A model generated the notes under the pieces. That model ran no database searches, was not told the DNA's origin, and saw nothing but the letters and a program-made list of their open reading frames with translations. The position numbers were made by a program, and so were the translations under genes. DNA of 40,308 nucleotides from Escherichia phage buks. Location: the sequence record MN850616.1; one strand, given 5' to 3'. Below are positions 4,027-37,622 of this stretch, piece after piece (position 1 is the stretch's first letter; every line of letters begins with the position of its first letter).

Positions 4027-4523
4027 TGCATTGGATCCCAAATTCGAGGGAATGTAGTTTGGTACACTCCGTAAGTTTTTAGAAATTCGCCAAGACAATC
4101 GCCGTAGCATCCATATAAGTCGGGCAGATTCTGGTTAAGACAGGCGCTGCCGACTTCCTGGAATGGTGATTTCTCGGCTGTGGCCGTGAAAGTTATTACC
4201 CAGTTCTTCCCGTCGTCGGTGGACTCGTTCCACGTAGATGTTAGAGTAACCTGGTAATCCTCGATACCCTGACCCAAGTCGTGTTTCATCCAGAAACTGG
4301 AAGCCCCTCCGTCTACCTTCTCCATGAAACTGAGGAATGCTTGTCTACCCAGTGGCGACACGACCAGCGTAACGCTAATCGGGAACACATCAAAGTATGT
4401 ATCACGCCCCTGGCGAACCCCGCCACCGGCCAGGTCTACTCGCCACACGTTGTTACCTCGCGTCATCGAGTAGCCTTTCGATACTATCGGCCTCAAAGAG
4501 GCCGGGAAATGGTAATCGCTCAT
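4023..4523 (-). CDS. Minor tail protein (gpM-like)
   Basis: 166 aa ORF directly downstream of the tape measure gene (1-nt gap); function by synteny only. Confidence 0.5.
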   Translation of the reverse strand: MSDYHFPASLRPIVSKGYSMTRGNNVWRVDLAGGGVRQGRDTYFDVFPISVTLVVSPLGRQAFLSFMEKVDGGASSFWMKHDLGQGIEDYQVTLTSTWNESTDDGKNWVITFTATAEKSPFQEVGSACLNQNLPDLYGCYGDCLGEFLKTYGVYQTTFPRIWDPMQ

Positions 4524-7738: not shown

Positions 7739-7767
7739 TTGCATAACCGTTAATAGTGTTCTATTAT
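7739..7767 (+). promoter_or_regulatory. Sigma70-like promoter TTGCAT-N17-TATTAT with overlapping palindromic operator-like site
   Basis: -35 at 7739-7744, -10 at 7762-7767; 16-bp site TAATAGTGTTCTATTA at 7751-7766; conserved CAACTAAACA 9 nt downstream of the -10. Confidence 0.55.
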
Positions 7768-7801
7768 CTCTACGTCAACTAAACAATATGAGGTTAAGAA
7801 C

Positions 7802-10064: not shown

Positions 10065-10736
10065 ATGAACGAATTAATGAATGTTAGTGAAGCACAAACC
10101 ATGTCCAGCCGTGAGATTGCGGAATTGACGGGGAAAGAACACGACAACGTACGACGCGATATATTAAAAATGGCACAGGAACTTTCCCTCAATTTTGAGG
10201 AAAAGGTTTTGCCTTCAAACGGTGGCAGACCAAGTAAGGTATTTCTCTTAGACAAAGAAAATACATTAATCCTGATTTCAGGGTACAGCATCAAAATGCG
10301 CGCTGCCATCATCCGCCGTTGGCAGGAACTGGAGTCACAAGCGAGCAAACCATCCTTACCGGTGCCCAAGACAATGGGGGAGGCTTTAAGGTTGGCTGCG
10401 GACTTGTGGGAGGAGAAAGAACGCCTTGCGCTTGAGAACAAGGAAATGGCACCAAAAGCTGATGTCTACGACCGCATCATCGACAGAAATAACTTGTACA
10501 ACGCGACGCAGGTTGCCCAGAAGTTCGGTCAATCTGCCGTGTGGATGAATAAACAACTTGAACAATTTGGCGTATACAATCGCTCCGTAAAACGCGGTCG
10601 TGTCTTCCAGCAATGGTTCATCGATAAGGGTTACGGCATTATGCGTGAAACAGAAACTGGTCATTCACAGGCTATGTTCTTCGCTGAAGGTGAAATGTGG
10701 ATTATCGGTAAGTTAACGGCAGAAGGTTTGATTTAA
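10065..10736 (+). CDS. Rha-family phage regulatory protein / antirepressor-like (Rha N-domain plus KilAC-like C-domain)
   Basis: 223 aa; N-terminal ...MSSREIAELTGKEHDNVRRDILKM... resembles the Rha regulatory domain; AGAGGGGA RBS; followed by a bidirectional terminator. Confidence 0.65.
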   Translation: MNELMNVSEAQTMSSREIAELTGKEHDNVRRDILKMAQELSLNFEEKVLPSNGGRPSKVFLLDKENTLILISGYSIKMRAAIIRRWQELESQASKPSLPVPKTMGEALRLAADLWEEKERLALENKEMAPKADVYDRIIDRNNLYNATQVAQKFGQSAVWMNKQLEQFGVYNRSVKRGRVFQQWFIDKGYGIMRETETGHSQAMFFAEGEMWIIGKLTAEGLI

Positions 10737-13711: not shown

Positions 13712-14221
13712 TTAACCCCTGAAAACATTAAAGGAGTAGGCATTATTGCTACCACATAAGAGAGGGCGTAACGCATCATCGGCTGCTGTGATGCTTACTG
13801 TGCTGCCCGAGTAGCCATTTTTAAAGTAGGACACGGTTACCGCACCCTCAACTCGTTCGGTCTGAACCTCTCGCCCGTCTGTAGACCCCCGAACGTCGGT
13901 ACCCGCACCATACTCTACGGCGGCCATTACCTGAGCCTGAACAATTAACGGAGGGATAACGTTAGATGGCTGAGGGAACCCGTGTAGGGTAATACCGGTT
14001 CTCGGGAACGCCAGCGCCTGGTTCGCCGATACACGGCGACCGCACATCTGCGATTCGAAAAGCCCAACATATACAGCACCATTTCTCAGCGCAGCCTCAG
14101 CCTTAACGTCGTCTTCTGGAAGTTCAAGGCCGTATTTAGCCGCTAGCGCACGTCCGTCTCCCAGGCTGACGTAGGAATCCGCATTAGGTAAGCCTTGTCC
14201 TGTTTCCACGATAAGCGGCAT
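13712..14221 (-). CDS. Putative head-tail connector/adaptor protein
   Basis: 169 aa; N-terminus MPLIVETGQGLPNADSYVSLGDGRALAAKYG resembles gp6-like head-tail connector openings from memory; weak. Confidence 0.35.
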   Translation of the reverse strand: MPLIVETGQGLPNADSYVSLGDGRALAAKYGLELPEDDVKAEAALRNGAVYVGLFESQMCGRRVSANQALAFPRTGITLHGFPQPSNVIPPLIVQAQVMAAVEYGAGTDVRGSTDGREVQTERVEGAVTVSYFKNGYSGSTVSITAADDALRPLLCGSNNAYSFNVFRG

Positions 14222-16911: not shown

Positions 16912-16995
16912 AGTCAATATGTCCCCTGGACTTTAGGACACCGGGCCACCCGGTGTTTCTGTAACAAGAATAAATTATTCCACTTACTAAGGCAA

Positions 16996-17259
16996 CTATT
17001 CCAGAATATTCCTTATGTACTCCTGCAACCGGAATACTTTCAAGCGAAGTTGCCGTGTGCACTCAGCGTTACGCACGTCGATGGTCAGGTCTTCGTCGGC
17101 ATCACTACTTGGCAGTGCCATTTTGCACGGCGGCTGCATTAGTGTCATATCCGGGGATGGAATTAGCATTCTCGGCGGCGCGCCGTTTGATTGACACCCG
17201 CTCAGGAGGGAACACGCAAACAACACGACCAGGACGGGTAACGTATTTGATAACTTCAC
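16996..17259 (-). CDS. Rz1: o-spanin (Rz1-like outer-membrane lipoprotein)
   Basis: GTG start with GGAGG RBS 8 nt upstream; signal peptide with lipobox (VVLFACSLLSGC), Pro-rich mature part; begins inside the Rz reading frame (+1) and extends past its stop. Confidence 0.65.
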   Translation of the reverse strand: MKLSNTLPVLVVLFACSLLSGCQSNGAPPRMLIPSPDMTLMQPPCKMALPSSDADEDLTIDVRNAECTRQLRLKVFRLQEYIRNILE

Positions 17260-17491: not shown

Positions 17492-17623
17492 AGTATCCCC
17501 TTTCTTTATACGCTAAGCCCGGCGTAAGCCGGGCGTTAAACTCGTATATCTGTAAACATCATACGGCGAATCTTAGTTAAATACTGAAAGCAATAGAGCT
17601 CGGCCCTTCCGAATGCGTTCGCG

Positions 17624-17697
17624 GTTACGCTAGGGCGTTGTGACGCCCGCTTCACGCGACCCGCACCGCGGTACGCTGAAAGCGTAGGTAGCGTAAC
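17624..17697. repeat. GC-rich nested inverted-repeat element (multi-hairpin) in a 318-nt non-coding gap
   Basis: Outer arms GTTACGCTA (17624-17632) and TAGCGTAAC (17689-17697); inner hairpins GGCG-TTGTGA-CGCC and TACGCT-GAA-AGCGTA (17672-17686); repeated GCGT/ACGC units. Confidence 0.5.
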
Positions 17698-17777
17698 ATA
17701 AAAAATAATAAAAGTCTATTTTTGGAATAAAGTATTCCTGAATTTACATTGGTAAGGGATAACTGGAATAATGGTGT

Positions 17778-17806
17778 GTAAAATTAAGGCCCCTTGACGG
17801 GGCCTT
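17778..17806 (-). terminator. Rho-independent terminator after the Ig-like gene
   Basis: Stem AAGGCCCC / GGGGCCTT (17786-17806) followed on the minus strand by AAUUUUAC. Confidence 0.55.
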
Positions 17807-17809
17807 TCG

Positions 17810-25221: not shown

Positions 25222-25842
<621 letters not shown>

Positions 25843-28196: not shown

Positions 28197-28228
28197 GGTT
28201 CATCCTCTTTTCTCGTTAACCTGCAATA

Positions 28229-28257
28229 ATAGTACTCTATTATATTTGGTTACGCAA
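28229..28257 (-). promoter_or_regulatory. Candidate minus-strand promoter TTGCGT-N17-TACTAT with overlapping operator-like site
   Basis: -35 is the reverse complement of 28252-28257, -10 of 28229-28234; palindromic site TAATAGTACTCTATTA at 28227-28242 supplies the -10; ~25-nt leader to gene 27897-28196. Confidence 0.45.
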
Positions 28258-28727
28258 GTGCCTTTTTATTCTTTTCTCTCGTCCCTCGTCAGGTAAGCGC
28301 TTGCCGTGAGGCAAGTGCGTTAATCCCTGAGAAGCAGACTAAGAATCTTTCGGCATACAAGAGAACAGTTACGTTTGCCGTTGTTCAGTGTTGTGCCTTT
28401 ATTCTTATTATCTGGTAACTAAAGGGCAGGCCTTAAGCCTGCCCACTAATCGTTACATTTTACGGTTGCGAATCTACGGCACATCAAGGAAATCAGATAC
28501 TTAAGAGATATGCTGCCGATGAGAATATAGCTCGCCCAAGGCAGTTCAGATACTAAGGAAGGAAGTTACTGAGTTTTAAGTTTGCGGGTTTCAGTAAGCC
28601 TTAACGCGTTTCCGCTTAGGGCGGAACCGCTAAGCTCTCACAAGGTGAAACAGAAACTTAAGTAACTTGAAGTTACAAGAGACAACTTACACGAAAAAAA
28701 CAAGAATGTCAATAGGTGTGTTTATAG

Positions 28728-28756
28728 TTGATTTCCCATTATGCCGTGGGTATACT
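28728..28756 (+). promoter_or_regulatory. Candidate promoter TTGATT-N17-TATACT for the plus-strand replication operon
   Basis: -35 at 28728-28733, -10 at 28751-28756, followed by GGAGG RBS and ATG 28788. Confidence 0.5.
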
Positions 28757-29244: not shown

Positions 29245-31431
29245 ATGTCAACAGGTAATCTAGCATACTCATGGTCGCGTAGCAATCGCCGTGAGGAACG
29301 CGCTGACATTAACGTTTACACCACGACTTCCGGCACCTGGGATGAGTTCGTTGAACTTATGCAGCCGCTTAAACGTTCGCGCCGGAACCCCAAGACAGAC
29401 CCCGGATATATCACCGCCGCGTGTACCGCCACGGTAAGCTCTACAGGTAAAGAAGCCGCCGAAGGTATGTTTTATCGCTGCAATGCGTCCGTAACGTCTT
29501 CGTCCCTGGCTTACGCCGACGTGGATAGTGCGACTCCGGAAGAGTTCGCCACTGATTGCGAGATGGTGCGTGAGTCGCGTTTCGCAATGATGCTCTACAC
29601 CACGGCATCCCACACCGAAGAAGCGCCACGCTATCGCATCGTTATGCCGGTGCGCACTCCGGTAACCGGCGGCGACATCATCCGCATCCGGTACGGTCTG
29701 CTGACGCATTTCCTTAAAGGCCGTGACGTAGATAGCGCGGGCTTCACCCTGTCGCAACCGATGTACCGCCCGCCAGTGGGAAGCCAGGTCATCGTGTCTG
29801 AAAGTAGCCGCATGATTACGGCAAGCAAGCTTATGGAGGGGGTGCCTGAAATTAACGTTACGGGTGCTTCCGATTATAAGGTGCCAGAGGGTGAGCAATC
29901 TGAGTTAACCGACCTGTTCGAAGAGTTCGCTTTCGAGTTCGGCGGCCGTATGACTGACCGTGGCCTGCAAATGCCGGCGACGCCAGAACATGCCGCCCAA
30001 TACTCGACGGGGGAACCGAAACAGGACGACTTCCTTTTCTGTTGGCCCCGCGATGGCTTCGAGCGCCCCAACGTAACCATGTACCATGACACCGACCTGG
30101 TGGCCACGGGTGGGATGACACCCGGCGGACGGGATATGTGGGTCTACGCTTGCACCGCTACCGGTTTGCCGTTTGACCGTGTAGAGGTAGCGCTTGGCTG
30201 GGCGCCCGGCGTTACTTGCGACGAAGAAGACCTGGCCGACGAAGAACCCCCGGCGCCGCAAGCGGATTTCATCGTCGAAGGATATATGCCGTCTAACTGC
30301 ATATGGGATATCGTCGGGGAATCCGGGACGTATAAATCGTTCTACACACTCGGCATGATGTATATCAGTGCTGCCGGGTACCGGTTCGCGGGGGCGGACA
30401 CCCGTAAAGCCCATCATTTCTATATTGATGGTGAGGGTGGGGAGTTCACGCACACCCGTATCGCTGCGTTGGCCGCTAAATACGGCGATGAAGGTATGCG
30501 GTATATGCATGTGCTTGACGCTGGTGAGTTTGCGGATACGAAGAAACTGGTTCGTAAAATGCGCCAGCTAGCGGGCAGTGAACCTGTCGGGATGGTTGCT
30601 TTCGATACGCTTAACCAGACCTTCGGAAACTGGATAGACAAGTTCAATGAGAACTCCGCGGGCCAGGACGGGATGGGGCGGGTAGTGGCGATGCTCAAAG
30701 AAGTACGCGACGGTACTAAAGGTGCTGTAGGTGTTGTCCACCACACCCCGAAAGGTGGGAGTAAGGCGCGCGGAAGTGGGGCGCTGTACGCCGGTGTCGA
30801 CGTCGAGCTTACGCTTGTCCGGGCGACCGAGAAACAAATAAACGTTGCACATACCAAGAACAAAAACGGTATGCAGCAGAAAACAATAGGCATGGTGCTT
30901 GAACCAGTACAGTTTCGCGAGGCCCCGCCGCCGAAAGAGTTCCAGGCTGTAGAATTCGTTGGGGGTGAGGGATACGGGGAAATCGTTAACCTAGACCTGC
31001 CGGAACCGCATAAAGCTCTTGTACTCATGCCGTGGGGCTTCCAACCGTTCGAAACGGACGAGGAAAAAGAGCGCAACGAAGGACTGGACGGTAAAGGTAA
31101 AGATTCCGTAAAGGATACAGTTAAACGGTCTAAAGATGCTTCCGCACGAGAATCGGTTATGTCTGCTCTCGAGGATTTACAGCAAGCCGATGATACCGGA
31201 CGAGGTTTCACACAACGGCAAATAGTCGCCAGGGCTGGGGACCACAGCATAACAAACTTGGTGCTCGAGAAGATGCTACGAGAGGGTGAATTGATGCTTG
31301 GTTGCGATGAGAATGGTGAAGTTGTAACGAATACTTACAGGTTGCCGACGGGTATAGATGACCGTAAGCGGCCAAAGAACAGGTATGAACCTAACGACAA
31401 CATAAAGACAACAGAAGGGGATTTAGAGTAA
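29245..31431 (+). CDS. Replication protein: primase-polymerase-like N-domain fused to RecA-like P-loop ATPase
   Basis: 728 aa; N-region with acidic motif AYADVDSATPEE; central Walker A-like GESGTYKSF and downstream ...VGVVHHTPKGG...; C-terminal winged-helix-like tail. Domain names are from recollection. Confidence 0.6.
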   Translation: MSTGNLAYSWSRSNRREERADINVYTTTSGTWDEFVELMQPLKRSRRNPKTDPGYITAACTATVSSTGKEAAEGMFYRCNASVTSSSLAYADVDSATPEEFATDCEMVRESRFAMMLYTTASHTEEAPRYRIVMPVRTPVTGGDIIRIRYGLLTHFLKGRDVDSAGFTLSQPMYRPPVGSQVIVSESSRMITASKLMEGVPEINVTGASDYKVPEGEQSELTDLFEEFAFEFGGRMTDRGLQMPATPEHAAQYSTGEPKQDDFLFCWPRDGFERPNVTMYHDTDLVATGGMTPGGRDMWVYACTATGLPFDRVEVALGWAPGVTCDEEDLADEEPPAPQADFIVEGYMPSNCIWDIVGESGTYKSFYTLGMMYISAAGYRFAGADTRKAHHFYIDGEGGEFTHTRIAALAAKYGDEGMRYMHVLDAGEFADTKKLVRKMRQLAGSEPVGMVAFDTLNQTFGNWIDKFNENSAGQDGMGRVVAMLKEVRDGTKGAVGVVHHTPKGGSKARGSGALYAGVDVELTLVRATEKQINVAHTKNKNGMQQKTIGMVLEPVQFREAPPPKEFQAVEFVGGEGYGEIVNLDLPEPHKALVLMPWGFQPFETDEEKERNEGLDGKGKDSVKDTVKRSKDASARESVMSALEDLQQADDTGRGFTQRQIVARAGDHSITNLVLEKMLREGELMLGCDENGEVVTNTYRLPTGIDDRKRPKNRYEPNDNIKTTEGDLE

Positions 31432-31454
31432 AAAGAAAGGGGCCATCAGGCCCC
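31431..31454 (-). terminator. Terminator hairpin between convergent primase-like and XRE genes
   Basis: Stem GGGGCC / GGCCCC (31439-31454) with ATCA loop; on the minus strand followed by UUUCUUUU; the XRE stop codon lies in the loop. Confidence 0.5.
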
Positions 31455-31664
31455 TGTATCACCAAAGCTTAACCATCGAGGGTCAACACCGAGAGCATCG
31501 GCAATGTGGAAGATTTTAAAACAGTCTACCTTACACACCCGACCGGTTGCCAGATGGGTAATAAGGCTTTGGGATACGCCAGCTTTGAAAGCAAGCTCAG
31601 TTTGACCCATGCCGATTTCTTTGCGGCGGCGCTCTATGCGGGCGCCTAATTCGGATTGCTGCAT
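31446..31664 (-). CDS. XRE-family (Cro-like) helix-turn-helix transcriptional regulator
   Basis: 72 aa; ...RRRKEIGMGQTELAFKAGVSQSLITHLATGR...IADALGVDPRWL... is a textbook Cro/CI-type HTH; AAGGAG RBS; transcribed divergently from the replication operon. Confidence 0.75.
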   Translation of the reverse strand: MQQSELGARIERRRKEIGMGQTELAFKAGVSQSLITHLATGRVCKVDCFKIFHIADALGVDPRWLSFGDTGA

Positions 31665-31693
31665 ATGTTTACTCCTTAGTTAGATATGTAGTA

Positions 31694-31722
31694 ATAGTAC
31701 AGTAATAAAATACACGGTGCAA
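31694..31722 (-). promoter_or_regulatory. Candidate promoter of the XRE/Cro-like gene, TTGCAC-N17-TACTAT, with overlapping degenerate operator
   Basis: -35 is the reverse complement of 31717-31722, -10 of 31694-31699; site TAATAGTACAGTAATA at 31692-31707 overlaps the -10. Confidence 0.5.
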
Positions 31723-31737
31723 TTTACGAAAAAGTGC

Positions 31738-31766
31738 TTGCATAAATAATAGAGTACGATTATAGT
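31738..31766 (+). promoter_or_regulatory. Sigma70-like promoter TTGCAT-N17-TATAGT with overlapping operator-like site
   Basis: -35 at 31738-31743, -10 at 31761-31766; site TAATAGAGTACGATTA at 31747-31762; CAACTAAACA 10 nt downstream of the -10, as at promoter 7739-7767. Confidence 0.55.
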
Positions 31767-31797
31767 TCTTATCACCAACTAAACAGGAGAATGCACA

Positions 31798-32334
31798 ATG
31801 TTAGAACAATTTATTAAATTATTTGAACGTTTCGTAGTTGCTCACGAACTGATTGCTGCGAACAGCGCGAAACAGACTGTGTACCAACTTAAAAGTGATA
31901 TCACCGCAGTAAACAAAGAGTTGATAGAAAAAGCGGTAGAAATGGCAGCACCGGATGAGCGCCGGGCTAGTTCTGCGGTGTGCAAAGCGTTAGAAAAAGA
32001 ACTGCCGGTAGAAGGTGAAAGCATTGTTGACACTAAACCGGCGGAAGAAGAGAAACCAAAACGCAAGACTCGTAAAGCTAAAGTAGAGGAACCCGCACCG
32101 GAACCGGAAGAAGAGAAAGAAGAAATTGATTATAAGTCTCTTCGCGACCAGATTCAGGCTATTGATGATGCGATTAACGAAGGCCCCAGCGATGCCGCGT
32201 GCGATGATTCTGATGAACTGCTGGAAGAGTTTACCGGTAAGAAAATGAAGATTGCCGCGATTAAAGACGAAGACCTGGCCGAGTACCTGGAACGCCTCAC
32301 GGCAATCAAGAACAAGTATTTCGAAGAAGAATAA
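31798..32334 (+). CDS. Acidic hypothetical protein
   Basis: 178 aa, Glu/Lys-rich central region; first gene after promoter 31738-31766. Confidence 0.5.
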   Translation: MLEQFIKLFERFVVAHELIAANSAKQTVYQLKSDITAVNKELIEKAVEMAAPDERRASSAVCKALEKELPVEGESIVDTKPAEEEKPKRKTRKAKVEEPAPEPEEEKEEIDYKSLRDQIQAIDDAINEGPSDAACDDSDELLEEFTGKKMKIAAIKDEDLAEYLERLTAIKNKYFEEE

Positions 32335-32376
32335 TCACCCGGCGGCCCTTCGGGCCACTTTTCAGGAGGATGAATA

Positions 32377-33804
32377 ATGATTCTAAAAGAACGTGGCGGA
32401 AATAACGATGTGCACGCCCTACTGTCACCGTCAGGAGCTAAAAAGTGGCTGGCGTGCAGTGCATCACTGGCCTGTGAGAAAGATATCCCCAACACGTCCT
32501 GTAAAGCTGCGGTGTTAGGAACGGCGATGCACACACTTGCCGAGATTAATCTTAACCAGTACATCAAAGGCACTGCGTTGCCGTTAGAGCGAGATGTAGG
32601 GGCTTATGTGTTGGAAGAAGGTAAAGGCGCGGTTAAAGCGCTAATTAAGCCGATGAAAGGTGCGGTGCTGGTTACAGATGACATGGTAGAGCAGGTGCGA
32701 AAGTACACTGACTACTGCAAAGCGATTATAGACGTATCTACTTACGCCAAACTGGAAATGCGCGTAAATCTTACTGAGGTGTTGCACCCGGGTTATGAAG
32801 GCGTGGAGACGTTCGGAACCGCCGACTTTGTGGCCGTTCAGGAACTGGTGAACACCGAAGAGCATATGCTTATTATTGGTGACCTTAAAACAGGACGGCA
32901 TCGTGTCGAAGCGAAAGAAAACAAACAGCTTATGCTTTACGCTCTCGGTGTTTATCGCAGACTCAAGAGACGTTATAACATAACCGTTGTTCGTCTGGTC
33001 ATCTTCCAGCCATACGCTGGCGGTGCGTCGGAGTGGGACATCTCAGTCGAAGGCCTTGAACTGTTCGCTAAGTTTGCGCAGAAACGCGCGGTAGCTGCGC
33101 TTGACGCGTATCGACGTGGTAAGAAGAACCTGAAAGCGTCGGACTTTAAGCCGTCGGTTGATGGGTGCCAGTGGTGCCGGTTCTCAGAACAGTGCCAGGC
33201 AAGGACTAGAGCATCCAATGCCGTTCTGGTCAAAGAACTGGAGAACGATGCAGATGTATATCGGCGTGCCGTAGAACGGGTGGCTAAGTTCTGCAACGAG
33301 GCGGACTATATGAGCGTTTGGGAGGATGTTCAACCTAGCGATATCCTTAAGTTGCTGCCCGACGAGACAGATTTACCTAAGAAGCCAGTTAGAGAGGATG
33401 ACTTTGCGTTAGAACTTACCACTAAACAACTAGTGGCTGAGTATGAGAAGTTGCCGTTTTTGCGTCAGCACATCGACAAAGTAGAAAAAGCGATGGCGGC
33501 CGCGCTTCATTCCGGTAAAAAAGTTCCCGGTTACAAACTGGTTGAGGGCCGTCCTGGTAATCGCACGTGGAAAGATGAAGACGCTGTAAATAAATTCAGG
33601 GAAAACCATGTAAACGGCTATCTGCTGGATAAGACTGTTCCGGTATCACCGACCGAAGCGGAAAAGATCATCGGCAAGGAAGACCCCGAACTTTGGGCTG
33701 AGCTATCTAAACTCGTAACTCGTAAGCCGGGTGTGCCATGTGTTGCATCGGCGGATGACAGGCGACCTGATTGGAAAAATATTACGGAGGAGGATTTGGA
33801 ATGA
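32377..33804 (+). CDS. PD-(D/E)XK-type nuclease (DUF2800-like, Cas4/RecB-like exonuclease)
   Basis: 475 aa; N-terminus ...HALLSPSGAKKWLACSASLACE... as I recall for DUF2800-family phage nucleases; AGGAGG RBS. Confidence 0.65.
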   Translation: MILKERGGNNDVHALLSPSGAKKWLACSASLACEKDIPNTSCKAAVLGTAMHTLAEINLNQYIKGTALPLERDVGAYVLEEGKGAVKALIKPMKGAVLVTDDMVEQVRKYTDYCKAIIDVSTYAKLEMRVNLTEVLHPGYEGVETFGTADFVAVQELVNTEEHMLIIGDLKTGRHRVEAKENKQLMLYALGVYRRLKRRYNITVVRLVIFQPYAGGASEWDISVEGLELFAKFAQKRAVAALDAYRRGKKNLKASDFKPSVDGCQWCRFSEQCQARTRASNAVLVKELENDADVYRRAVERVAKFCNEADYMSVWEDVQPSDILKLLPDETDLPKKPVREDDFALELTTKQLVAEYEKLPFLRQHIDKVEKAMAAALHSGKKVPGYKLVEGRPGNRTWKDEDAVNKFRENHVNGYLLDKTVPVSPTEAEKIIGKEDPELWAELSKLVTRKPGVPCVASADDRRPDWKNITEEDLE

Positions 33805-33977
33805 AGAAATTGACGTGGTGGCTGCTTGCCACCCCGTTAATACCGGTGGCTTTTATATACTATTTAATGAGGGCGTTAGAGAAAGTCGGTGAGACGTCGG
33901 GAATTTTAGCGGACAGGATGCTTGACTCAAAAATGAGGATGAAATATTTAGCATGGCGTAATCGAAAATTTGGTTGA
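33801..33977 (+). CDS. Small membrane protein (58 aa)
   Basis: Start set to ATG 33801-33803 (MKKLTWWLLATPLIPVAFIYYLMRAL...) with GGAGGAGG RBS and ATGA overlap with the nuclease stop; the track start is TTG at 33771. Confidence 0.45.
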   Translation: MKKLTWWLLATPLIPVAFIYYLMRALEKVGETSGILADRMLDSKMRMKYLAWRNRKFG

Positions 33978-34002
33978 CAAGTTAATAGTACTCTATTATA
34001 GT
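33974..34002 (+). promoter_or_regulatory. Sigma70-like promoter TTGACA-N17-TATAGT with overlapping operator-like site
   Basis: Consensus -35 at 33974-33979, -10 at 33997-34002; site TAATAGTACTCTATTA at 33983-33998; followed by hairpin CCGGGCAGCTTCCCGG and the SSB-like gene. Confidence 0.6.
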
Positions 34003-37341: not shown

Positions 37342-37622
37342 CTCCAGAAGGAAAGATTCAGAAATATGCAAAAGAGCGATTCGAGGCCGTTGGTGGCCTC
37401 GTTCGGAAACTGTCTTATGAAGGGCGCTCCGGCGCTCCTGACCTGCTGGTAATTCTCCCCGGCGGCATCATCTGGTTCGTCGAGGTGAAGAAAGACGAAA
37501 ACACGAAGCCTGACCCGCACCAGTTACGGGAGCATGAGCGGATGTGCAAACGCGGGGCAAATGTTTTTGTTGTCGGGTCTAAGAAACAGGTTGATAAATT
37601 AATAGAACACTATTATATTTAG
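37338..37622 (+). CDS. VRR-NUC domain nuclease
   Basis: 94 aa; GTG start overlapping upstream stop; ...GAPDLLVILPGGIIWFVEVKKDENTKPDPHQLREHERMCKRGANVFVV... matches the VRR-NUC pattern (D...E.K core). Confidence 0.7.
   Translation: MTPEGKIQKYAKERFEAVGGLVRKLSYEGRSGAPDLLVILPGGIIWFVEVKKDENTKPDPHQLREHERMCKRGANVFVVGSKKQVDKLIEHYYI

What the first reader, a model, noticed from the sequence alone, without database searches (positions are those of the whole stretch)
31446..31766. Cro-like XRE regulator with back-to-back divergent promoters, each overlapped by an operator-like site
A 72-aa Cro/CI-type HTH protein is encoded on the minus strand inside the otherwise plus-strand replication module. Its candidate promoter (TTGCAC-N17-TACTAT, 31694-31722) and the divergent promoter for gene 31798 (TTGCAT-N17-TATAGT, 31738-31766) lie 15 bp apart. 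Each core is overlapped by a TAATAG-containing site (31692-31707 and 31747-31762). This resembles a lambda OR-type switch, yet no CI repressor or integrase is visible, so it may act as a temporal early/middle switch in a lytic phage.
Basis: partly seen in the sequence, partly recalled or inferred. Interest (0 to 1): 0.65.

Follow-up and report, generated by a model that had tools for sequence, protein, structure and literature searches.

The report
Orphan Cro repressor with genome-wide operators
A small Cro-like DNA-binding protein of a lytic Salmonella phage sits beside two weak copies of a 16-base palindrome that also lies, in perfect form, inside most of the phage's other promoters, so it probably acts as a genome-wide brake on transcription rather than a local lambda-style switch.

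Summary
The window is Salmonella phage blauehaus, a virulent Jerseyvirus of the Guernseyvirinae. ORF 31446-31664(-) encodes a 72-aa homologue of phage 434 Cro.

The two local sites are the weakest copies (1 and 2 mismatches) of a 16-bp palindrome, TAATAG-N4-CTATTA. It is perfect at 7751, 28227, 33983 and 37600, against about 0.002 expected by chance, and near-perfect at 25241. Every copy overlaps the -10, the spacer or the -35 of a sigma70-like promoter. These promoters serve the replication, gp01, nin/terminase, imm-antirepressor and tail operons.

The same motif, promoter geometry and regulator gene recur in Kagunavirus. Variant motifs occur in Cornellvirus, phiEap-2 and Otaku. The regulator's own promoter always carries the weakest site.

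Best reading: an orphan Cro-type repressor with dispersed operators that turns down most host-RNAP promoters and finally its own. It is not a bistable OR switch. I found no CI or integrase, and no prophage copy in 5,426 E. coli genomes. Binding itself is inferred, not shown. I rate it a new variant of a known kind, of moderate interest.

The parts
31446..31664 (-). Gene for the 72-aa orphan Cro-like XRE regulator (blauehaus gp58)
   Evidence: ORF. Pfam HTH_3 and HTH_31 above cutoff. Matches 434 Cro at E 1.4e-8 over residues 6-69. Q21 and Q32, equivalent to 434 Cro Q17 and Q28, are invariant in alignment A1.
31438..31455 (-). GC-rich hairpin plus T-run terminator just after the regulator's stop codon, shared with the converging helicase-primase gene
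   Evidence: Found by the terminator scan. Annotated as a terminator on both strands in Ent1 and on one strand in SETP3.
31692..31707 (.). O_L: TAATAGTACAGTAATA, 2 mismatches to the 16-bp palindrome. It covers the -10 of the regulator's own promoter.
   Evidence: Invariant in 11 Jerseyvirus loci. The Kagunavirus equivalent always has 1 mismatch.
31694..31722 (-). P_L: TTGCAC-17-TACTAT, promoter of the regulator gene (class B: -35, 9 nt, 16-mer). Predicted start near 31687.
   Evidence: Sequence. The same TTGC(A/G)(C/T)-N9-16mer architecture recurs at 28227(-) and at three K1ind1 promoters.
31738..31766 (+). P_R: TTGCAT-17-TATAGT, promoter of gp57 and the exonuclease/SSB/polymerase operon (class A: -35, 3 nt, 16-mer). 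Predicted start near 31773.
   Evidence: Sequence. Positionally conserved as TTGACA-17-TATAGT in Kagunavirus and as TTGCAx..TATAGT in Cornellvirus, PSDA-2 and phiEap-2.
31747..31762 (.). O_R: TAATAGAGTACGATTA, 1 mismatch. It fills the P_R spacer and overlaps the -10 by 2 nt.
   Evidence: In 14 distinct Kagunavirus spacers the arms are perfect while N4 varies.
31798..32334 (+). gp57, labelled '13.88 kDa late protein': first gene downstream of P_R, function unknown (phrog_3127)
   Evidence: Present in all five genomes compared.
33974..34002 (+). Promoter TTGACA-17-TATAGT (11/12) upstream of the SSB gene, with a perfect operator TAATAGTACTCTATTA at 33983-33998 (class A)
   Evidence: Annotated as a promoter in SETP3. 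Conserved with varying N4.
37591..37619 (+). Promoter TTGATA-17-TATATT (10/12) inside the 3' end of the VRR-NUC gene, upstream of gp49 and the helicase. Perfect operator TAATAGAACACTATTA at 37600-37615 (class A).
   Evidence: An equivalent site occurs at K1ind1 26882. The pattern is found in 40 Guernseyvirinae contigs in IMG/VR.
28227..28257 (-). Promoter TTGCGT-17-TACTAT of the gp01 operon, with a perfect operator TAATAGAGTACTATTA (28242-28227) covering the -10 (class B). An opposing TTAACC-16-TATTAT lies at 28216-28243(+).
7739..7778 (.). One perfect operator (7751-7766, TAATAGTGTTCTATTA) shared by two overlapping divergent promoters. TTGCAT-17-TATTAT (+, 7739-7767) drives imm through the Rha/Ant antirepressor. 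TTGACG-17-TATTAA (-, 7778-7750) points to the tail-chaperone/tape-measure operon.
   Evidence: K1ind1 equivalent at 13806. gp34 matches Phage_pRha plus ANT.
25222..25256 (-). Promoter TTGACT-17-TATATT (10/12) after the lysis-cassette terminator, driving gp08, the nin-like genes and terminase. The operator TAATAGTTGACTAGTA (25256-25241, 1 mismatch) contains the -35 box.
   Evidence: Conserved at K1ind1 39518, VSiP 40951 and phiEap-2 3721.

Best explanation
gp58 is an orphan Cro: a single-domain homologue of 434 Cro, kept by a virulent phage that has no CI. As a dimer it most likely binds the palindrome TAATAG-N4-CTATTA (core AATAG-N4-CTATT, 14 bp like 434 operators).

That palindrome lies over the -10, the spacer or the -35 of at least seven host-RNAP (sigma70-type) promoters, so a bound protein would exclude RNA polymerase. 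Four operators are perfect: the SSB/polymerase promoter, the helicase promoter, the gp01 promoter, and the shared imm/tail divergent pair. The two flanking the regulator's own gene are the weakest: O_R over P_R has 1 mismatch and O_L over its own promoter has 2.

The predicted behaviour follows from this ranking. After infection all these promoters fire. As gp58 accumulates from its poorly repressed monocistronic gene, it first turns down the perfect-operator promoters, then P_R, and finally itself. This is a Cro-like 'turn-off' or dosage throttle on early and middle transcription while genome copies rise.

What is shown: the gene, its family, the sites, their statistics, their promoter geometry and their conservation. 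What is inferred: that gp58 is the binder, that binding represses, and the timing.
For: (1) Family. Pfam HTH_3 and HTH_31 match. 434 Cro is the best solved relative over the whole length, with 47.6% identity by tblastn. The two glutamines equivalent to 434 Cro Q17 and Q28 are invariant.

(2) Motif. There are four perfect 16-mers against 0.0024 expected. It is the only over-represented palindrome in the window, and AATAG-N4-CTATT is the most frequent one in K1ind1, with 5 perfect copies.

(3) Geometry. Every copy sits in a promoter in one of a few fixed registers: -35 plus 3, 6 or 9 nt, or containing the -35. Three of the six best consensus promoter hits in the window carry it. In class A the palindrome lies in the spacer, where RNA polymerase reads no sequence.

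(4) Footprint. In 14 distinct Kagunavirus spacers the arms are invariant while N4 varies. The same holds at the SSB promoter.

(5) Link to gp58. Two sites flank its gene. It is the only DNA-binding candidate found in all five genomes that carry the motif. An unrelated contig encodes a 434-CI-like relative with helix SQQLISK and has ACAAC-N4-GTTGT three times, which is the same 5-N4-5 layout.

(6) The factor is phage-specific. Cornellvirus VSiP infects Salmonella, as blauehaus does, yet uses TATTAG-N4-(G/A)TA(A/T)TA.

(7) Its own promoter has the weakest site in both Jerseyvirus and Kagunavirus.
Against: No binding or expression data exist for this protein. The link between protein and site rests on adjacency, co-occurrence and family analogy.

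The two local sites are individually within chance. Both local -35 boxes are poor, and the scanner did not call either promoter.

Operators also sit on promoters that lead into the nin/terminase and tail genes. A simple 'early off, late on' model does not explain how late genes escape repression.

In Otaku the spacer next to the regulator has no good site. The gp61/helicase-primase promoter candidate at 28728 has no operator.

The one published Kagunavirus time-course (PMC12645636) is coarse. Its 'specific DNA binding' middle gene can be equated with this regulator only from gene order.
Confidence: 0.65

Rival explanations
1. The palindromes are operators, but for a different factor: another phage protein such as the NinH-like gp13, HTH_17 gp61 or gp57, or a host protein. 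On this view gp58 has only a local or unrelated role.
For: Nothing ties gp58 physically to the sites. Its neighbouring sites are the worst copies. gp57 is also present in all five genomes, and the NinH-like gp13 is in four of the five.
Against: gp61 is found only in Kagunavirus and gp34 in none of the relatives. gp13 is missing from Otaku and falls below the Pfam cutoff. gp57 is acidic and has no DNA-binding signature. A host factor does not fit two Salmonella phage genera using different arms. A 14-16 bp 5-N4-5 palindrome is what 434-type HTH dimers bind, and a relative with 434-like operators shows the same layout.
Confidence: 0.12
2. gp58 is a maintenance or immunity-type repressor. By silencing nearly every promoter except, weakly, its own, it allows a reversible silent state (pseudolysogeny, carrier state or hibernation) in a phage regarded as strictly virulent.
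For: Perfect operators on the replication, lysis-side, packaging and tail promoters, with the weakest on its own gene, is the layout of dispersed-operator immunity repressors such as P1 C1 and L5 gp71 (established knowledge). The phage also encodes a Rha/KilAC antirepressor-type protein under operator control. A complete Kagunavirus genome is deposited as a circular 'plasmid' of an E. coli blood isolate.
Against: No integrase, partition or telomere functions are annotated. There is no Kagunavirus-like DNA in 5,426 complete E. coli genomes and only one such record among 72,556 plasmids. The protein lacks a CI-type C-terminal domain. Papers on the group describe these phages as virulent or lytic (titles and abstracts).
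Confidence: 0.08
3. The palindrome is an intrinsic promoter feature, for example symmetric -10-like arms that make bidirectional promoters, and no repressor binds it.
For: The arms resemble -10 hexamers (CTATTA+T gives TATTAT). At 7751 and 28227 the two arms can serve as -10 boxes of opposing promoters.
Against: At the class A promoters (31747, 33983, 37600) the -10 is TATAGT or TATATT, largely outside the palindrome. The left arm lies in the spacer, and there is no convincing opposite-strand promoter or gene. Strict dyad symmetry with a free N4 is a protein-dimer signature, not a requirement of RNA polymerase.
Confidence: 0.07

Closest known systems
Phage 434 Cro and its 14-bp operators (OR1-3, OL1-3)
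   Same: Both are single-domain HTH proteins of 71-72 aa. They align over the full length at 47.6% identity, and the key glutamines are conserved. Both have 14-bp-core dyad operators that overlap sigma70 promoters, and in both the gene lies next to a divergent promoter region.
   Different: There is no CI partner and no tripartite operator. The operators are dispersed over at least 7 promoters rather than confined to OR and OL. The half-site is AATAG rather than ACAA(G/T) (434 sequences recalled from memory), matching Q29 to S/G and Q32 to T/N/S changes in the recognition helix. The host phage is virulent.
Lambda Cro 'turn-off' (Tof) function in lytic growth
   Same: The proposed role is the same: a small repressor made early that turns down early promoters, including its own, as infection proceeds (established knowledge).
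   Different: Lambda Cro has a different fold and acts only at OR and OL, with late genes controlled by Q antitermination. Here the operators also sit on promoters leading to the packaging and tail genes.
Dispersed-operator repressors: P1 C1, mycobacteriophage L5 gp71 'stoperators', IncP plasmid KorA
   Same: One repressor has many operators scattered over the genome, each overlapping a promoter (established knowledge; not tested here).
   Different: Those belong to temperate phages or plasmids. The P1 and L5 sites are asymmetric, and the proteins are unrelated in sequence to gp58.
Orphan cro-like genes in virulent derivatives of temperate phages (for example Streptococcus thermophilus Sfi19-type; recalled from memory)
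   Same: A Cro-type gene is retained without CI or integrase in a lytic phage.
   Different: To my knowledge no genome-wide operator set has been reported for those. Here the arrangement is conserved across a whole subfamily.

Membership tests
XRE / Cro-C1-type HTH (Pfam HTH_3 clan), 434 Cro subfamily | Sequence match to the family model above the curated threshold | tested here: met
   HTH_3 30.6 bits (cutoff 23) and HTH_31 31.3 bits (cutoff 27). PHROG transcriptional repressor families match at 6e-10.
XRE / Cro-C1-type HTH (Pfam HTH_3 clan), 434 Cro subfamily | Full-length similarity to 434 Cro, a single domain of about 70 aa with no C-terminal oligomerisation or peptidase domain, and conserved DNA-contact glutamines | tested here: met
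   E 1.4e-8 over residues 6-69 aligned to 434 Cro 4-65. Q21 and Q32 are invariant. Length is 72 aa.
XRE / Cro-C1-type HTH (Pfam HTH_3 clan), 434 Cro subfamily | Dyad-symmetric operators of about 14 bp overlapping promoters next to its own gene | tested here: met
   O_L 31692-31707 and O_R 31747-31762 have the core AATAG-N4-CTATT with 2 and 1 mismatches.
XRE / Cro-C1-type HTH (Pfam HTH_3 clan), 434 Cro subfamily | The protein binds those operators and represses transcription | not testable with these tools
   Needs EMSA or footprinting and reporter assays.
Lambda/434-type OR bistable switch | Divergent CI-type repressor gene (P_RM) opposite cro | tested here: not met
   The gene divergent from gp58 is gp57 (phrog_3127, no HTH). 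No CI is annotated in the genome.
Lambda/434-type OR bistable switch | Tripartite operator shared by two competing repressors | tested here: not met
   The 133-bp spacer holds only one site per promoter.
Temperate-phage lysogeny module | Integrase or other maintenance functions, and prophage copies in host genomes | tested here: not met
   No integrase, partition or telomerase gene is annotated. There is no match in 5,426 complete E. coli genomes. One 'plasmid' record exists.
Dispersed-operator global repressor regulon (P1 C1 / L5 gp71 / KorA type; functional class) | Many copies of one operator, each overlapping a promoter, across the genome | tested here: met
   Seven promoter-embedded copies in the window, 4 of them perfect. 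Six in K1ind1. Variant sets occur in VSiP, phiEap-2 and Otaku.

The most novel reading that the evidence does not exclude
A whole subfamily of phages regarded as 'strictly virulent' and used for biocontrol (Guernseyvirinae) places nearly all of its host-RNAP promoters under one orphan Cro-type repressor with graded operators. These promoters cover replication, the lysis-side operon, nin/terminase, imm-antirepressor and tail genes. This would be a global throttle that could impose reversible whole-genome silencing (hibernation, pseudolysogeny or a carrier state, or homo-immunity between co-infecting relatives), with the operator-controlled Rha/KilAC antirepressor as a possible release.
Probability: 0.15. 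Interest if true: 0.7.

Novelty: new variant of a known kind. Interest (0 to 1): 0.45.

Why it matters
Jerseyvirus and Kagunavirus phages are among the most frequently isolated candidates for Salmonella and E. coli biocontrol. The phage collection searched holds 447 related records.

Their genomes are routinely annotated with a 'repressor' gene that has no described function. Such a label can be read as a marker of a temperate lifestyle in safety screens.

Showing that it is an orphan Cro with a defined 16-bp operator in at least seven promoters would do four things:
- give the first transcription map and regulatory logic for the subfamily;
- explain the 'repressor' annotation;
- predict eight transcription starts that can be tested;
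- provide a compact natural set of repressor-controlled promoters of graded strength.

It also raises a testable question: how do late genes escape a repressor whose operators sit on promoters upstream of them?

Tried and rejected
Consensus promoter scanning of the whole window. The scanner's alternatives in the spacer (+31723-31750 TTTACG-16-AATAAT and -31775-31746 GTGATA-18-TATTAT) have no counterpart in Kagunavirus, so I set them aside.

Loose motif searches. The local sites are not significant on their own.

An RNA role. There were no Rfam matches, and the palindromes lie upstream of the predicted starts, so they would not be transcribed.

Literature. I found no description of these operators or of the regulator's function. 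The Ent1 and Jerseyvirinae papers are not held, so prior mention in subscription journals cannot be excluded. SETP3 and Ent1 GenBank records annotate terminators and, in SETP3 only, two promoters, but no operators. From memory only, and unverified: 1990s work on the related phage MB78 reported a strong promoter that interacts with a phage-specific factor.

The Kagunavirus RNA-seq paper. Its time classes are coarse and the gene table is not held, so the regulator's class could not be confirmed.

Prophage or episome search. Negative apart from one 'plasmid' record.

Helical phasing of O_L and O_R. Centre-to-centre spacing is 55 bp here and 45 bp in Kagunavirus, so it is not conserved and gives no support for looping.

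Host-factor operator. Rejected because two Salmonella phage genera use different arms.

Full report
IDENTITY OF THE WINDOW. The region 31000-33000 is 100% identical to Salmonella phage blauehaus (NC_073173.1; Jerseyvirus, Guernseyvirinae). It is 80-96% identical to the other 445 of the 447 matching phage records. The window is the reverse complement of a circular permutation of that record: window x >= 28486 maps to record 70479-x, and x < 28486 maps to 28486-x (checked). The RefSeq annotation lists 61 genes and no integrase, CI, partition or telomere function.

CHECK OF THE OBSERVATION.
- The ORF is 31446-31664(-), 72 aa, with AAGGAG 7 nt upstream of the ATG.
- A hairpin with a T-run terminator lies at 31438-31455. 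It is also annotated in Ent1 and SETP3.
- P(-) is TTGCAC-17-TACTAT (31722-31694).
- P(+) is TTGCAT-17-TATAGT (31738-31766).
- The two -35 boxes are 15 bp apart.
- The TAATAG sites are at 31692-31707 and 31747-31762.

The protein scores above the curated cutoffs for HTH_3 and HTH_31. Two cautions apply. First, the consensus scanner did not call either promoter, because both -35 boxes match TTGACA at only 3 of 6 positions. Second, the two sites alone are within chance expectation.

WHAT THE SITES REALLY ARE. A search for the dyad implied by the two sites gave four perfect copies of TAATAG-N4-CTATTA, at 7751, 28227, 33983 and 37600. About 0.0024 are expected, giving a Poisson P of about 1e-12. 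An unbiased census of all 5-6 bp arm palindromes with spacers of 0-8 found this to be the only over-represented one in the window. A further copy with 1 mismatch lies at 25241.

Each copy sits in a sigma70-like promoter in a fixed register.
- Class A (-35, 3 nt, 16-mer, with -10 TATAGT or TATATT overlapping the last 2 nt): 31738 (gp57, exonuclease and downstream genes), 33974 (SSB and polymerase; 11/12 to consensus) and 37591 (gp49 and helicase; 10/12).
- Class B (-35 TTGC(A/G)(C/T), 9 nt, 16-mer, with -10 TACTAT at positions 9-14 of the 16-mer): 28257(-) for gp01 and 31722(-) for the regulator itself.
- At 7751 one operator is shared by two mirror-image overlapping promoters, each with -35 plus 6 nt. 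One runs rightward to imm through the Rha/KilAC protein, and the other leftward to the tail-chaperone and tape-measure genes.
- At 25241 the -35 TTGACT lies inside the palindrome (TTGACT-17-TATATT, 10/12). This site follows the lysis-cassette terminator and precedes gp08, the nin-like genes and terminase.

Three of the six best consensus promoter hits in the whole window carry the palindrome. In class A the left arm lies in the spacer, where RNA polymerase makes no base-specific contacts. A strict dyad at that position therefore points to a dimeric DNA-binding protein.

CONSERVATION. In Kagunavirus K1ind1 the same core is perfect five times and has 1 mismatch once. The perfect copies lie at the imm promoter, the helicase-side promoter, P_R, and two TTGCAC-N9 promoters in the unannotated region. 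The imperfect copy lies at the regulator's own promoter.

Across 14 distinct Kagunavirus spacers the P_R arms never change while N4 does (CGAA, CTAA, TGAA, CAAA). The regulator's own site is always AATATG(G/C)TACTATT, a change that also creates a TGn extended -10. In Jerseyvirus, O_R (1 mismatch) and O_L (2 mismatches) keep their arms in 11 loci. The SSB-promoter operator keeps its arms while N4 varies.

P_R keeps its position, its -10 TATAGT and an embedded dyad in Cornellvirus, PSDA-2 and phiEap-2. Cornellvirus VSiP uses a related but distinct set, TATTAG-N4-(G/A)TA(A/T)TA, with five regex matches, while blauehaus has none of that type. Otaku and phiEap-2 have their own variants.

The exact class A pattern TAATAG-N4-CTATTATAGT retrieved 70 IMG/VR stretches. 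Forty of these are Guernseyvirinae. The other 30 showed no relation and are probably chance matches.

WHO BINDS THE PALINDROME. The regulator's best solved relative is 434 Cro (E 1.4e-8, full length; 47.6% identity). 434 Cro binds 14-bp dyads (established knowledge). In the multiple alignment the residues equivalent to 434 Cro Q17 and Q28 are invariant. The next recognition-helix positions differ: QQSIQ in 434, against QSLIT, QGAIN, QSAIS, QGRVS and QGMLN here.

A distant relative on an unrelated contig has the helix SQQLISK and carries ACAAC-N4-GTTGT three times in 4 kb. This is the 434-type arm in the same 5-N4-5 layout, which fits the idea that this protein family reads such dyads and that the arm sequence tracks the helix.

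Among the DNA-binding candidates of blauehaus, only gp58 is detectable in all four other genomes that carry the motif.
- gp61 (HTH_17) occurs only in K1ind1.
- gp34 (Rha plus KilAC) occurs in none.
- The NinH-like gp13 is missing from Otaku.

A host factor is unlikely, because Jerseyvirus and Cornellvirus share the host Salmonella but differ in arm sequence. The assignment of gp58 to the palindrome is therefore well motivated. It remains an inference.

MECHANISM PROPOSED. Host RNA polymerase starts at all these promoters on entry. The regulator gene is a short monocistronic unit with its own promoter, Shine-Dalgarno sequence and terminator, and it carries the weakest operator. As the protein accumulates, it should occupy the perfect operators first, then O_R, and finally O_L. 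The result would be a turn-down of the replication, gp01, nin/terminase, imm and tail promoters, followed by autoregulation.

This matches the turn-off role of Cro in lambdoid lytic growth (established knowledge), extended from two operator regions to a dispersed regulon. It is not a bistable switch, because there is no CI, no P_RM and no tripartite operator.

The main weakness of a purely temporal 'early-off' reading is that operators also sit upstream of the packaging and tail genes. Late expression may depend on other things:
- titration of the repressor by replicated genomes;
- read-through transcription;
- a second regulatory system. A separate GGAATA...TATTCC dyad family marks the spanin and scaffold intergenic regions.

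EVOLUTIONARY CONTEXT. In Cornellvirus, PSDA-2, phiEap-2 and Otaku the regulator is the first gene of the strand that continues into helicase-primase. In VSiP and phiEap-2 the lysis, terminase and structural genes also lie on that strand. The divergent spacer is thus the central control region of those genomes.

LIFESTYLE. I found no Kagunavirus-like DNA in 5,426 complete E. coli genomes. One PLSDB 'plasmid' (CP088689.1, 44,086 bp, from a blood isolate) is a complete Kagunavirus genome. It could reflect a carrier culture or contamination. It keeps a small probability on the silent-state reading.

PRIOR KNOWLEDGE. GenBank records label the gene variously as 'repressor', 'Cro', 'DicA', 'XRE' or 'DNA-binding protein'. 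I found no paper in the searchable library that describes its operators or function. Two key subscription papers are not held. A Kagunavirus RNA-seq study classed an 'HTH domain' gene as early and a 'specific DNA binding' gene next to the AAA helicase-primase as middle (PMC12645636). Equating the latter with this regulator rests on gene order only.

VERDICT. The element is an orphan 434-Cro-type repressor gene, its two divergent promoters, and the two weakest members of a conserved, genome-wide set of promoter-embedded 16-bp operators. It is a new variant of a known kind and of moderate interest.

Noticed in passing
window 16912-17104 and 17492-17809 (also phiEap-2 L028 11501, 11874, 12637, 12670; VSiP L027 near 7700): A second, different dyad family (GGAATA..TATTCC, for example CAGGAATACTTTATTCC and GTGGAATAATTTATTC) clusters in the intergenic regions flanking the spanin and scaffold genes. 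phiEap-2 has GAATAA-N-TTATTC four times in the same neighbourhood. It is a candidate late-promoter or activator site.
   Followed up: partly
window 28243-28727: A gene-free stretch of about 485 bp lies between the gp01 promoter and gp61. It holds three to four copies of CAGATACTTAAG-like repeats (28493, 28546, 28650, and inverted at 28563) and a minus-strand terminator-like hairpin at 28424-28444. It could be an origin, a pac site or a small RNA. There was no Rfam match.
   Followed up: partly
window 29245-31431 compared with L017, L021-L024, L027-L029: The helicase-primase block is inverted in Jerseyvirus and Kagunavirus relative to Cornellvirus, PSDA-2, phiEap-2 and Otaku. In those four the Cro-like gene heads the operon that contains it.
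   Followed up: yes
window 10065-10736 (+): gp34, annotated 'DNA-binding protein', is a Rha (Phage_pRha) plus KilAC (ANT) antirepressor-type protein. It is the last gene of the operator-controlled imm operon and is absent from the four relatives compared. It might act on resident prophage repressors or on gp58.
   Followed up: partly
L102 (CP088689.1, whole record): A 44,086-bp circular 'plasmid' of an E. coli blood isolate in PLSDB is a complete Kagunavirus genome, including the Cro-like gene at 4267-4482(-). It is either a carrier-state culture or a contaminant.
   Followed up: partly
L014 2418, 2467, 3699: An unrelated metagenomic viral contig encodes a 434-CI-like repressor (helix SQQLISK, with a longer C-terminus) and has three ACAAC-N4-GTTGT dyads. 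Two of them lie just upstream of the repressor's gene.
   Followed up: partly
window 28728-28756 (+): The candidate promoter TTGATT-17-TATACT, directly upstream of gp61 (HTH_17), gp60 and helicase-primase, carries no palindrome. It may be the one unregulated early promoter. This would fit an 'HTH domain' gene being called early in a Kagunavirus RNA-seq study.
   Followed up: no
window 31723-31737 and equivalents in L015-L024: The 15-bp A/T-rich stretch between the two -35 boxes (TTTACGAAAAAGTGC) is conserved as an A/T-rich tract upstream of P_R in all lineages (for example AAAATTATTTTACTAAAGTGC). It looks like a shared UP element.
   Followed up: no
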